From NCBI GenBank assembly GCA_964581105.1, contig CAZOMB010000002.1, positions 4,015 to 68,014 of the forward strand: 64,000 nucleotides of DNA, read 5' to 3'. The notes beneath the pieces were generated by a model that saw only the letters and a list, made by a program, of their open reading frames with translations, was not told the DNA's origin and searched no databases. This document shows, one piece after another, positions 54,761 to 54,945 of the stretch (positions are counted from its first letter, which is position 1; each line of letters begins with the position of its first letter). Origin of the DNA: Candidatus Micrarchaeota archaeon (lineage in GTDB: Archaea > Micrarchaeota > Micrarchaeia > Anstonellales > Anstonellaceae). Position numbers and translations under genes: made by a program.

Positions 54761-54945
54761 GGCCCCGCAATTCCGGTAATCTCCTTAAATTTTTTTGTTT
54801 TTTACCTCTAATATTGTTTGTTGTGTTAGGGTTTTGTGTTGTCTTTTGTAACCATGGTTACATTACATAATAATAAATAACTAATAACTAAATATAGCAA
54901 TAAACAAATAAAAAACACCAACCAAACACCGGAACTCTGGGGGCC
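54761..54945. other. Symmetric non-coding element; candidate replication origin or terminus
   Basis: Inverted outer boxes GGCCCCGCAATTCCGGT (54761-54777) and ACCGGAACTCTGGGGGCC (54928-54945); T/G-rich left arm and A/C-rich right arm; perfect palindrome TGTAACCATGGTTACA (54847-54862) at the centre; strand codon bias flips here. Confidence 0.6.

What the first reader, a model, noticed from the sequence alone, without database searches (positions are those of the whole stretch)
54761..54945. 185-bp mirror-symmetric element: candidate undescribed replication origin or terminus
Seen: this is the largest non-coding gap in the window and is a degenerate inverted repeat. The outer GC boxes read ACCGGAA(T/C)T(GC/CT)GGGG(G)CC outward on each strand. 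The inner arms are almost purely T/G on the left and A/C on the right. A perfect 16-bp palindrome, TGTAACCATGGTTACA, lies within about 2 bp of the symmetry axis. The core can also be read as an 11-6-11 dif-like site: GTCTTTTGTAA-CCATGG-TTACATTACAT (54841-54868). Established: archaeal origins have inverted ORBs (..GGAAAC..GGGG) flanking an AT-rich unwinding element, and Xer/dif sites have TAA-N6-TTA cores. Inference: an origin with divergent ORB-like boxes whose G-strings point away from the AT-rich core (opposite to the arrangement I recall for model origins), or a terminus/dimer-resolution site.
Basis: partly seen in the sequence, partly recalled or inferred. Interest (0 to 1): 0.85.

Follow-up and report, generated by a model that had tools for sequence, protein, structure and literature searches.

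The report
Candidate replication origin of Micrarchaeota
A 180-bp mirror-symmetric DNA element in a tiny uncultivated archaeon sits exactly where the two DNA strands swap base composition and carries two initiator-type binding boxes, so it marks where chromosome replication starts, or less likely where it ends, in a phylum where neither site was known.

Summary
The element is real, at 54762-54943. It has two inverted 19-bp boxes with outward G-strings, a T/G-rich left arm, an A/C-rich right arm and a central perfect 16-bp palindrome.

It is conserved in about 25 Micrarchaeota genomes in at least three gene contexts. There are always exactly two boxes flanking GTAAC-Y-AT-R-GTTAC.

Third-codon-position strand composition flips exactly at the element. 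In the window, 54 of 59 genes on the left are G+T-rich on the + strand. All 19 genes on the right are A+C-rich. The same flip occurs in 23 related loci. The element is therefore a replication origin or a terminus.

The boxes match the archaeal origin recognition box (AGTGGAA, 4-5 nt, GGGGT). The genome encodes an Orc1-1-type initiator 34 kb away, and RFC-L lies 4 kb away. This layout parallels proven oriC1 origins.

- **Best reading (about 0.6):** a minimal oriC1-type origin, detached from orc1, with a skew polarity like that of haloarchaea.
- **Rival (about 0.3):** a terminus with a dif-like core. The bacterial-type skew polarity and the TAA-N6-TTA motif favour this. The symmetric core argues against it.

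Read-coverage slope would decide between them.

The parts
54762..54780 (-). Left ORB-like box. Read on the - strand it is ATTACCGGAATTGCGGGGC, with the G-string pointing away from the centre.
   Evidence: Scores 22.3 bits against a PWM built from 40 boxes. It is one of only two hits of 20 bits or more in 64 kb. The consensus is A[AT]TA[GC][CT]GGAA[GC]TnTGGGG[GT]. It resembles published ORBs.
54781..54846 (.). Left arm: AT-rich, 76% G+T on the + strand, with T-runs.
   Evidence: T-runs are conserved in relatives. It may also terminate transcription of the PRC-barrel gene (inference).
54847..54862 (.). Central perfect palindrome TGTAACCATGGTTACA.
   Evidence: The core GTAAC-Y-AT-R-GTTAC is present in protein-anchored relatives L003, L006, L007, L046 and L047 and in the pattern-found loci.
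54863..54924 (.). Right arm: AT-rich, 79% A+C on the + strand.
54925..54943 (+). Right ORB-like box AACACCGGAACTCTGGGGG, with the G-string pointing away from the centre.
   Evidence: PWM score 23.1 bits.
54961..55035 (-). Flanking tRNA-Met (CAT). It has initiator features: an A1:U72 pair and a GGG/CCC anticodon stem.
   Evidence: ARAGORN and Rfam. The initiator features were read from the sequence against established knowledge.
54468..54755 (+). Flanking PRC-barrel gene, the last gene with + strand G+T excess.
   Evidence: Pfam PF05239 on the called gene. Keto3 is +0.31.
19756..21006 (-). Orc1/Cdc6 gene, the candidate protein that binds the boxes (inferred, not shown). It lies 34 kb from the element.
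   Evidence: Best PDB match is S. solfataricus Orc1-1, 2QBY_A, E 1e-72. NCBIfam orc1/cdc6, 359 bits.
49303..50493 (-). Replication factor C large subunit gene, 4.3 kb from the element (context only).
   Evidence: NCBIfam RFC large subunit, E 6e-88. Found near the element in L018, L023, L024 and L046.

Best explanation
The element is the chromosomal replication origin of this Micrarchaeota genome. It is a minimal oriC1-type origin.

**Proposed mechanism (all steps inferred by analogy, none shown)**
1. One monomer of the genome's Orc1-1-type initiator binds each of the two inverted ORB-like boxes. The GGAA half-site faces inward and the G-string outward.
2. The two bound initiators load MCM onto the 145-bp, 76% A+T stretch between the boxes.
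3. The central palindrome is bound by a dimeric factor, playing the part that the 'ucm' motif and its protein UBP play midway between ORB2 and ORB3 in Sulfolobus oriC1.
4. Each helicase then leaves on the T/G-rich strand of its arm.

**What is shown:** the anatomy, its conservation, the exact coincidence with a strand-composition switch, the sequence match of the boxes to ORBs, and the presence of an Orc1-1-type gene.

**Consequence of this reading:** leading strands in Micrarchaeota would be A+C-rich at neutral sites. That is the polarity seen in haloarchaea, not the bacterial one.
For: **1. Strand-composition switch.**
- On the + strand, the third-position (G+T)-(A+C) excess is positive in 54 of 59 genes to the left and negative in 19 of 19 to the right. 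This holds whatever the gene orientation.
- The sign changes between 54755 and 55070.
- In a regression, the side effect on GC3 skew (0.115) exceeds the gene-orientation effect (0.078).
- The same flip is seen in 21 of 22 related loci and very strongly in L046 and L047.

**2. The boxes match ORBs.**
- 40 distinct boxes give A[AT]TA[GC][CT]GGAA[GC]TnTGGGG[GT].
- Examples such as AATAGTGGAAGTATGGGGGT share AGTGGAA, a 4-5 nt spacer and GGGGT with the published ORBs GTTCCAGTGGAAATGG-AGGGGTA and ATTACAGTGGAAATGA-AGGGGT. Published ORBs also occur as inverted pairs 39-256 bp apart (PMC4153887).
- Each locus has exactly two strong boxes, always inverted around the palindrome.

**3. Same layout as proven origins.**
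- H. hispanica oriC1 reads C-string ORB, G-rich repeat, AT-rich region, C-rich repeat, ORB G-string (PMC3936714).
- Sulfolobus oriC1 is ORB3-DUE-ORB2 over 130 bp, with an essential central motif (PMC12141716).

**4. Replication genes nearby.**
- The genome's Cdc6 is Orc1-1-type.
- It lies 34 kb from the element here, 42 kb away in contig JAOAJL010000001.1, and about 8 kb from the RFC-L block in Ga0310375_1000009.
- RFC-L is next to the element in several lineages and PolB in L047.

**5. No alternative origin in the sequence held.**
- There is no ORB cluster and no skew switch beside cdc6.

**6. The inverted skew polarity has a precedent.**
- Haloarchaea, whose origins are mapped by experiment, show it (PMC1868953; PMC12999951).
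Against: - **Skew polarity.** The G+T-rich strands converge on the element, so cumulative GC skew has a maximum there. Under the bacterial and eukaryotic rule that marks a terminus. The DPANN archaeon Forterrea shows the standard polarity, with the minimum beside cdc6 (PMC5905446).
- **Not adjacent to orc1/cdc6.** Nearly all described archaeal origins are.
- **Convergent context.** In most lineages the element lies between convergently transcribed genes.
- **dif-like palindrome.** ATGTAA-N6-TTACAT resembles archaeal dif (ATATAA-N6-TTATAT).
- **Partial ORB match.** The boxes keep only half of the ORB dyad and have a shorter spacer than the pan-archaeal consensus.
- **Gene orientation.** It does not diverge consistently around the element across lineages.
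- **Nested gene.** In some lineages a 78-aa gene sits between the palindrome and one box, putting that box 290-460 bp away.
Confidence: 0.6

Rival explanations
1. The element is the replication terminus. The central palindrome would be a Xer/dif-type dimer-resolution site, or the binding site of another terminus protein. The two inverted polar boxes would be accessory or fork-arrest sites flanking it.
For: - The skew polarity is that of a terminus under the bacterial rule. A related DPANN lineage follows that rule.
- The core fits the 11-6-11, TAA-N6-TTA pattern that is the most conserved archaeal dif feature. It matches 5 of 7 inner-arm positions of P. abyssi and T. kodakarensis dif.
- T. kodakarensis dif also lies in an AT-rich gap between convergent genes.
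- Thermococcales dif sites have conserved flanks, and the M. stadtmanae dif candidate is described as surrounded by imperfect inverted repeats.
- tRNA-iMet and the L1/L10/L12 genes point towards the element.
Against: - The central 6 bp are themselves palindromic (CCATGG here, CTATAG elsewhere) in about two thirds of the elements. L013 has a 36-bp perfect palindrome. From established knowledge of tyrosine recombinases, a fully symmetric core site has no orientation, whereas known archaeal dif sites have asymmetric spacers (TCGGCC, TGTACC).
- Sequence conservation covers 14-20 bp, not 28 bp.
- No tyrosine recombinase motif was seen in the sequence held, though that is only a small fraction of any one genome.
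- The boxes match ORBs. No role for Orc1-type sites at a terminus is known.
- The Orc1-1-type gene would then sit near the terminus in three lineages.
Confidence: 0.3
2. The element is only a bidirectional transcription terminator region for the converging PRC-barrel and tRNA-Met/TFE transcripts. The T-runs on each transcribed strand would be the signal, and the GC boxes incidental.
For: - T-runs lie on the transcribed strand on both sides.
- Most lineages have convergent genes at this position.
- The G-strings are often followed by a complementary C-run, which could form a short hairpin.
Against: - The element keeps its boxes and palindrome between co-directional genes (ECF-S then NnrD). In L028 the arm composition is reversed.
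- The boxes are conserved as inverted copies with invariant A-TA-GGAA-T-GGGG positions.
- A terminator reading does not explain the exact coincidence with the genome-scale skew switch in every genome.
- The tRNA already has its own T-run before the box.
Confidence: 0.04
3. The element is a mobile element remnant (a MITE with terminal inverted repeats), a non-coding RNA gene, or an assembly or inversion artefact.
For: The outer boxes look like terminal inverted repeats. Overall the element has a hairpin-like symmetry.
Against: - There is a single copy per locus, and no second copy in 64 kb.
- It occupies the same syntenic position in genomes whose TFE proteins are only 50-60% identical.
- It is identical in independent JGI and ENA assemblies.
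- No Rfam family matches, and the fold z-score is -1.16.
- It is absent from the viral and plasmid collections.
Confidence: 0.03

Closest known systems
Haloarchaeal oriC1 (Haloarcula hispanica minimal oriC1; Haloferax volcanii oriC1)
   Same: - Two inverted ORBs with G-strings at the outer ends flank an AT-rich region.
- A G-rich tract lies inside the left ORB and a C-rich tract inside the right ORB.
- Both ORBs are needed for function.
- Neutral-site GC skew has the inverted polarity, with a maximum at the origin (PMC3936714, PMC1868953, PMC12999951).
   Different: - The haloarchaeal origin is adjacent to its cdc6 gene, its ORBs have a full dyad and a longer spacer, and it has no central palindrome.
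- Here orc1 is 34 kb away, the boxes keep only the GGAA half of the dyad, and a conserved 14-20 bp palindrome sits at the centre.
Sulfolobus oriC1 core (ORB3-DUE-ORB2 with the ucm motif bound by UBP)
   Same: - About 130-180 bp in size.
- Two inverted Orc1-1 sites.
- An AT-rich middle that is mostly free to vary.
- One conserved motif midway between the sites (PMC12141716).
- The initiator here is most similar to Sso Orc1-1.
   Different: - The ucm is an 11-bp motif that is not described as a palindrome. Its binder UBP is a 111-aa protein.
- No UBP relative was identified here.
- The small protein encoded inside the element in some lineages has a Cas2-like fold.
- The Sulfolobus origin adjoins orc1-1.
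Archaeal Xer/dif sites (Pyrococcus abyssi, Thermococcus kodakarensis)
   Same: - 11-6-11 geometry.
- TAA-N6-TTA motif.
- AT-rich flanks.
- Position in a convergent intergenic gap at a skew inversion (PMC2958812, PMC11840125).
   Different: - Known dif sites have asymmetric 6-bp spacers and 28 bp of conservation. Here the core is fully symmetric and 14-20 bp are conserved.
- No G-string boxes are described at known dif sites.
Methanomassiliicoccales ORB pairs
   Same: - The ORB sequences (GTTCCAGTGGAAATGG-AGGGGTA, ATTACAGTGGAAATGA-AGGGGT) share AGTGGAA, a 5-nt spacer and GGGGT with the best boxes here.
- They occur as inverted pairs and can carry an extra G-run (PMC4153887).
   Different: Those pairs lie next to orc1/cdc6.1. 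No central palindrome is reported.

Membership tests
Archaeal oriC1-type origin (ORB-DUE-ORB) | Two or more origin recognition boxes in inverted orientation that match the ORB consensus | tested here: met
   There are two inverted boxes. Their consensus shares A-G-T/C-GGAA, a 4-5 nt spacer and GGGG(T) with published ORBs. The 5' half of the ORB dyad (TTCC) is missing.
Archaeal oriC1-type origin (ORB-DUE-ORB) | AT-rich unwinding region between the boxes | tested here: met
   76% A+T between the boxes, against 55.5% for the window.
Archaeal oriC1-type origin (ORB-DUE-ORB) | Adjacent orc1/cdc6 gene | tested here: not met
   The orc1 gene is 34 kb away here and 42 kb away in JAOAJL010000001.1. No element locus has cdc6 in its flanks.
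Archaeal oriC1-type origin (ORB-DUE-ORB) | Cognate Orc1-1-type initiator encoded by the genome | tested here: met
   2QBY_A (Sso Orc1-1) E 1e-72; 2V1U E 2e-61; NCBIfam orc1/cdc6.
Archaeal oriC1-type origin (ORB-DUE-ORB) | Strand-composition inflection at the site, with origin polarity | tested here: inconclusive
   The switch is sharp and conserved. Its polarity is that of an origin only under the haloarchaeal rule. Under the bacterial rule it is that of a terminus.
Archaeal oriC1-type origin (ORB-DUE-ORB) | Initiator binding, autonomous replication, or a marker-frequency peak | not testable with these tools
   No reads, proteins or cultures are available.
Xer/dif dimer-resolution site | Two 11-bp inverted arms separated by 6 bp, with TAA-N6-TTA | tested here: met
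   GTCTTTTGTAA CCATGG TTACATTACAT. The inner arms match 5 of 7 positions of P. abyssi and T. kodakarensis dif.
Xer/dif dimer-resolution site | Asymmetric central region that gives the site an orientation | tested here: not met
   CCATGG here and CTATAG in many relatives are palindromic. L013 is a perfect 36-bp palindrome. That an asymmetric centre is required rests on established knowledge of tyrosine recombinases.
Xer/dif dimer-resolution site | XerA recombinase encoded by the genome | tested here: inconclusive
   A motif scan of the window and the loci held at that point (L001-L039) found nothing. That sequence is only a small fraction of any one genome.
Xer/dif dimer-resolution site | Location at the replication terminus | tested here: inconclusive
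   It lies at a skew switch whose polarity fits a terminus under the bacterial rule.
MITE / transposon remnant | Many copies at varied sites, with target-site duplications | tested here: not met
   One copy per locus, syntenic across divergent genomes.
Structured non-coding RNA | A stable fold beyond shuffled controls, or a match to a known family | tested here: not met
   Fold z-score -1.16. No Rfam family matched apart from a noise hit at E 0.37.

The most novel reading that the evidence does not exclude
The element is a compact replication terminus. A symmetric dif-like palindrome would be flanked at 35-100 bp by two inverted, polar, ORB-type boxes. These boxes, perhaps bound by the Orc1 protein itself, would act as a fork trap or as accessory sites. 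That would be the first defined termination system in archaea and a new role for ORB-type sites.
Probability: 0.2. Interest if true: 0.85.

Novelty: new variant of a known kind. Interest (0 to 1): 0.66.

Why it matters
No replication origin or terminus has been described for Micrarchaeota. A full-text search found no such paper.

**If it is the origin**
- It is about the smallest natural archaeal origin layout: two ORBs plus one central palindrome.
- It is detached from orc1 and conserved across a phylum. It would be easy to test with recombinant Cdc6 and in the existing co-cultures.
- DPANN genomes with very strong strand skew would have the opposite polarity to bacteria. Origin and terminus calls made from GC skew would then be swapped, and so would genome-curation checks and any growth-rate estimates that rely on such calls.

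**If it is the terminus**
- It would be the first archaeal terminus with defined flanking polar sites.

**Either way**
- The motif set (box, palindrome, box) is a one-line search pattern. It locates a replication landmark on Micrarchaeota contigs.

Tried and rejected
- **Long hairpin or RNA.** DNA fold z-score -1.16 and no Rfam family. Rejected.
- **Chance palindrome.** One 16-bp palindrome per 64 kb is expected by chance. Significance therefore had to come from relatives, and it did.
- **Virus or plasmid origin.** Two viral-contig scans gave one hit, a chance match inside a GC-rich coding repeat. There was no plasmid match.
- **Classical ORB cluster or skew switch beside cdc6.** None found in the window, L043 or L045.
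- **Gene orientation as a polarity-free test.**
  - In the window, 62% of coding bases on the left and 57% on the right point away from the element.
  - Relatives are mixed. Uninformative.
- **Extending the sequence for a wider skew profile.** Only 9 kb could be added to the right.
- **Literature calibration of skew polarity in Micrarchaeota.** The Mia14 paper and other papers give no usable statement.
- **Tyrosine recombinase search.** A motif scan of all held sequence found nothing convincing.
- **The 78-aa protein nested in the element in some lineages, tested as a possible UBP analogue.**
  - No Pfam or PDB sequence match.
  - The confident AlphaFold model (pLDDT 92) most resembles Cas2, and only weakly (TM 0.5-0.6, E about 0.02). 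This gives no support for either reading.

Full report
**What is in the sequence.**

The stretch 54756-54960 lies between the stop of a PRC-barrel gene (+ strand, ends 54755) and the 3' end of a tRNA-Met(CAT) gene (- strand, 54961-55035). That tRNA follows the TFE-alpha gene (55070-55720, -). The gap is therefore convergent.

It contains the following features.
- A perfect 16-bp palindrome TGTAACCATGGTTACA at 54847-54862.
- Two inverted boxes: GCCCCGCAATTCCGGTAAT at 54762-54780 and AACACCGGAACTCTGGGGG at 54925-54943.
- Two AT-rich arms, 76% G+T on the left and 79% A+C on the right.

The palindrome centre is 2 bp from the midpoint between the boxes. The arm contrast is the largest of its kind in the whole 64-kb window.

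- One 16-bp palindrome per 64 kb is the chance expectation.
- The region does not fold better than shuffled sequence, with a z-score of -1.16.
- It is not the longest ORF-free stretch. 2371-2724 is longer.

**Whose genome.**

The same contig occurs in a JGI and an ENA metagenome assembly with an identical element. The nearest genomes are all Candidatus Micrarchaeota (DPANN archaea).

**Conservation.**

Relatives were first found through the TFE protein alone, at 56-66% identity. The three that keep the TFE, tRNA-Met, gap, PRC order (L003, L006, L007) all carry the palindrome core GTAAC-Y-AT-R-GTTAC, with outward-facing G-string boxes on both sides, although L003's PRC-side box has a degenerate G-string.

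One metagenome scan for the palindrome plus one box gave 31 loci.
- Five are chance hits in GC-rich DNA.
- The other 26, about 19 distinct genomes, have the unsearched features too: the second box, TAT/ATA around the palindrome, and AT-rich arms.

Two further loci were reached through a small protein. They carry the full element as well, with a degenerate G-string in one box of each.

The gene context differs between lineages.
- PRC | element | tRNA-iMet-TFE.
- ECF-S transporter | element | NAD(P)HX dehydratase | KaiC-like ATPase.
- RFC-L | element | LeuA.

Across 40 distinct boxes the consensus is A[AT]TA[GC][CT]GGAA[GC]TnTGGGG[GT]. Invariant A, T and A lie upstream of GGAA and were not part of the search pattern. 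A weight matrix of the box finds exactly two strong hits per locus. They always flank the palindrome, the left one on the - strand and the right one on the + strand. There is nothing comparable elsewhere in the window or around cdc6. Arm lengths vary from 35 to 97 bp, and up to 460 bp where a small gene is inserted.

**The decisive observation: a strand-composition switch.**

At third codon positions I measured the excess of G+T over A+C on the + strand.
- It is positive in 54 of 59 genes to the left of the element, on both coding strands.
- It is negative in all 19 genes to the right. This count uses 9 kb of extra sequence from the same contig.
- The sign changes between the PRC gene (+0.31) and the TFE gene (-0.03).

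In a regression, the side of the element explains more of the GC3 skew (coefficient 0.115) than gene orientation does (0.078).

The same left-positive, right-negative flip is found in the related loci.
- All 21 loci with genes on the left are positive there, and 20 of 21 are negative on the right.
- In L046 (Candidatus Gugararchaeum) GC3 skew is about +0.3 on one side and -0.3 on the other.

There is no such switch next to the cdc6 gene in two genomes. A switch of this kind, independent of transcription direction and fixed to one conserved element in many genomes, marks an origin or a terminus of replication.

**Origin or terminus.**

*For the origin*
- The boxes resemble origin recognition boxes. 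Published ORBs are CTTCCAGTGGAAACGAAAGGGGT (pan-archaeal), GTTCCAGTGGAAATGG-AGGGGTA (Methanomassiliicoccales) and ATTACAGTGGAAATGA-AGGGGT ('M. intestinalis' ORB1). They come as inverted pairs 39-256 bp apart and are sometimes extended by another G-run (PMC4153887).
- Boxes such as AATAGTGGAAGTATGGGGGT share AGTGGAA, a 5-nt spacer and GGGGT with these, and often continue as GGGGGTGGGTGG.
- The window's Cdc6 is most similar to S. solfataricus Orc1-1 (E 1e-72) and A. pernix ORC1, the proteins that read such boxes.
- The layout equals that of two proven origins.
  - In H. hispanica oriC1, the G-strings listed for mutagenesis are CCCCCC on one ORB and GGGGGGGG on the other, with GGGGAGGGGG and CCCCCTCCCC just inside. 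I read this as outward G-strings and a G-rich-then-C-rich interior (PMC3936714). This reading rests on the sequences quoted in the text, not on the figure.
  - In Sulfolobus oriC1, ORB3 and ORB2 flank a 130-bp region that tolerates mutation except for a central motif. That motif is bound by UBP, which contacts MCM (PMC12141716).
- The orc1 gene stays within 34-42 kb of the element in two genomes and close to its flanking genes in a third.
- RFC-L, PolB or a KaiC/RadA-like ATPase lie beside it in various lineages.

*For the terminus*
- The G+T-rich strands converge on the element. In bacteria, and by the cytosine-deamination argument, that marks a terminus.
- The DPANN archaeon Forterrea shows the standard pattern, with the skew minimum next to cdc6 (PMC5905446).
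- The core fits TAA-N6-TTA, the most conserved feature of archaeal dif. It is close to P. abyssi ATTGGATATAA-TCGGCC-TTATATCTAAA and T. kodakarensis TTTTGATATAA-TGTACC-TTATATGACAA.
- Known dif sites also sit in AT-rich convergent gaps with conserved flanks.

*Weighing the two*
- The polarity argument is weakened by haloarchaea. Their origins are mapped by experiment, yet their third-position and non-coding GC skew is inverted (PMC1868953, PMC12999951).
- The dif argument is weakened by symmetry.
  - The central 6 bp are palindromic in about two thirds of the elements.
  - L013 is a perfect 36-bp palindrome.
  - A site like that has no orientation, whereas characterised dif sites have asymmetric spacers.
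- Conservation also covers 14-20 bp rather than 28 bp.
- Gene orientation gives no consistent answer.
- I put the origin at about 0.6 and the terminus at about 0.3. The remaining 0.1 covers a pure terminator region or other readings, which do not explain the skew switch or the box conservation.

**How it would work as an origin (inferred).**
1. One Orc1 monomer binds each box, with the GGAA half-site proximal and the G-string distal.
2. MCM is loaded on the AT-rich DNA between the boxes.
3. The central palindrome is held by a dimeric factor.
4. Each helicase leaves on the T/G-rich strand, which is the leading-strand template on its side.

None of these steps is shown here.

**Novelty.**

I found no description of a Micrarchaeota origin or terminus. 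The element is best filed as a new variant of the oriC1 kind. It has exactly two half-dyad ORBs and a conserved central palindrome. It is not linked to orc1, and the skew polarity is opposite to the bacterial rule. If it is instead the terminus, it is considerably more novel.

Noticed in passing
L018:12719-12955 (-), L036:7477-7712 (+), L046:10001-10237 (+), L047:10001-10246 (+); also L009 and L026/L029/L032: A 76-81 aa basic protein (MLxYxFDLKIK..KRRFYYxL..KTKSVL) is encoded inside one arm of the element in some Micrarchaeia lineages. It starts 3-15 bp from the palindrome, with a TATA-like sequence on the far side. There are 43 protein clusters and no Pfam or PDB sequence match. The AlphaFold model (pLDDT 92) is a ferredoxin-like fold weakly resembling Cas2. 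The protein is absent from the window.
   Followed up: yes
window 53269-53368 (-): A second tRNA gene of 100 nt, presumably intron-containing, is found by Rfam (58.7 bits) but missed by ARAGORN.
   Followed up: no
L006:4600-4715 and L036:7097-7230: In these relatives the tRNA-iMet next to the element carries insertions (putative introns), including one in the T-arm region. ARAGORN does not call these genes.
   Followed up: no
window 2371-2724: A 354-bp stretch with no ORF longer than 38 aa lies between convergent genes. Its GC content (48%) is close to the window average of 44%. It is longer than the gap under study and no Rfam family matches. It might hold an unrecognised RNA.
   Followed up: partly
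window 1-64000; L046:1-20237: The strand skew at third codon positions is unusually strong for an archaeon. The offset is about 0.1-0.15 in the window and about 0.3 in GC3 in Candidatus Gugararchaeum, independent of gene orientation.
   Followed up: yes
window 56346-58819 versus L045:15079-17647: The PIN plus H+-pyrophosphatase block lies to the right of the element in the window. In Ga0310375_1000009 it lies, inverted, on the cdc6/RFC-L side. This pattern is expected from inversions that are symmetric about a replication landmark.
   Followed up: partly
window 54468-54755; L003:2823-3089: The PRC-barrel protein next to the element is 87-92% identical in most syntenic genomes (80% in L007), while the TFE proteins of those genomes are only about 50-74% identical. 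It stays linked to the element even where TFE is not adjacent (L009, L018).
   Followed up: partly
window 20997-21428 (+) and 19756-21006 (-); L043:9525-11206; L045:9518-11224: sepF and orc1/cdc6 form a conserved divergent pair about 110 bp apart. The spacer contains a shared AAAACCCGC..GC-rich hairpin-like sequence just upstream of cdc6.
   Followed up: no
window 45810-47336 (-): A 508-aa HerA/VirB4/CedB-like ATPase. All NCBIfam hits are far below their cut-offs.
   Followed up: no
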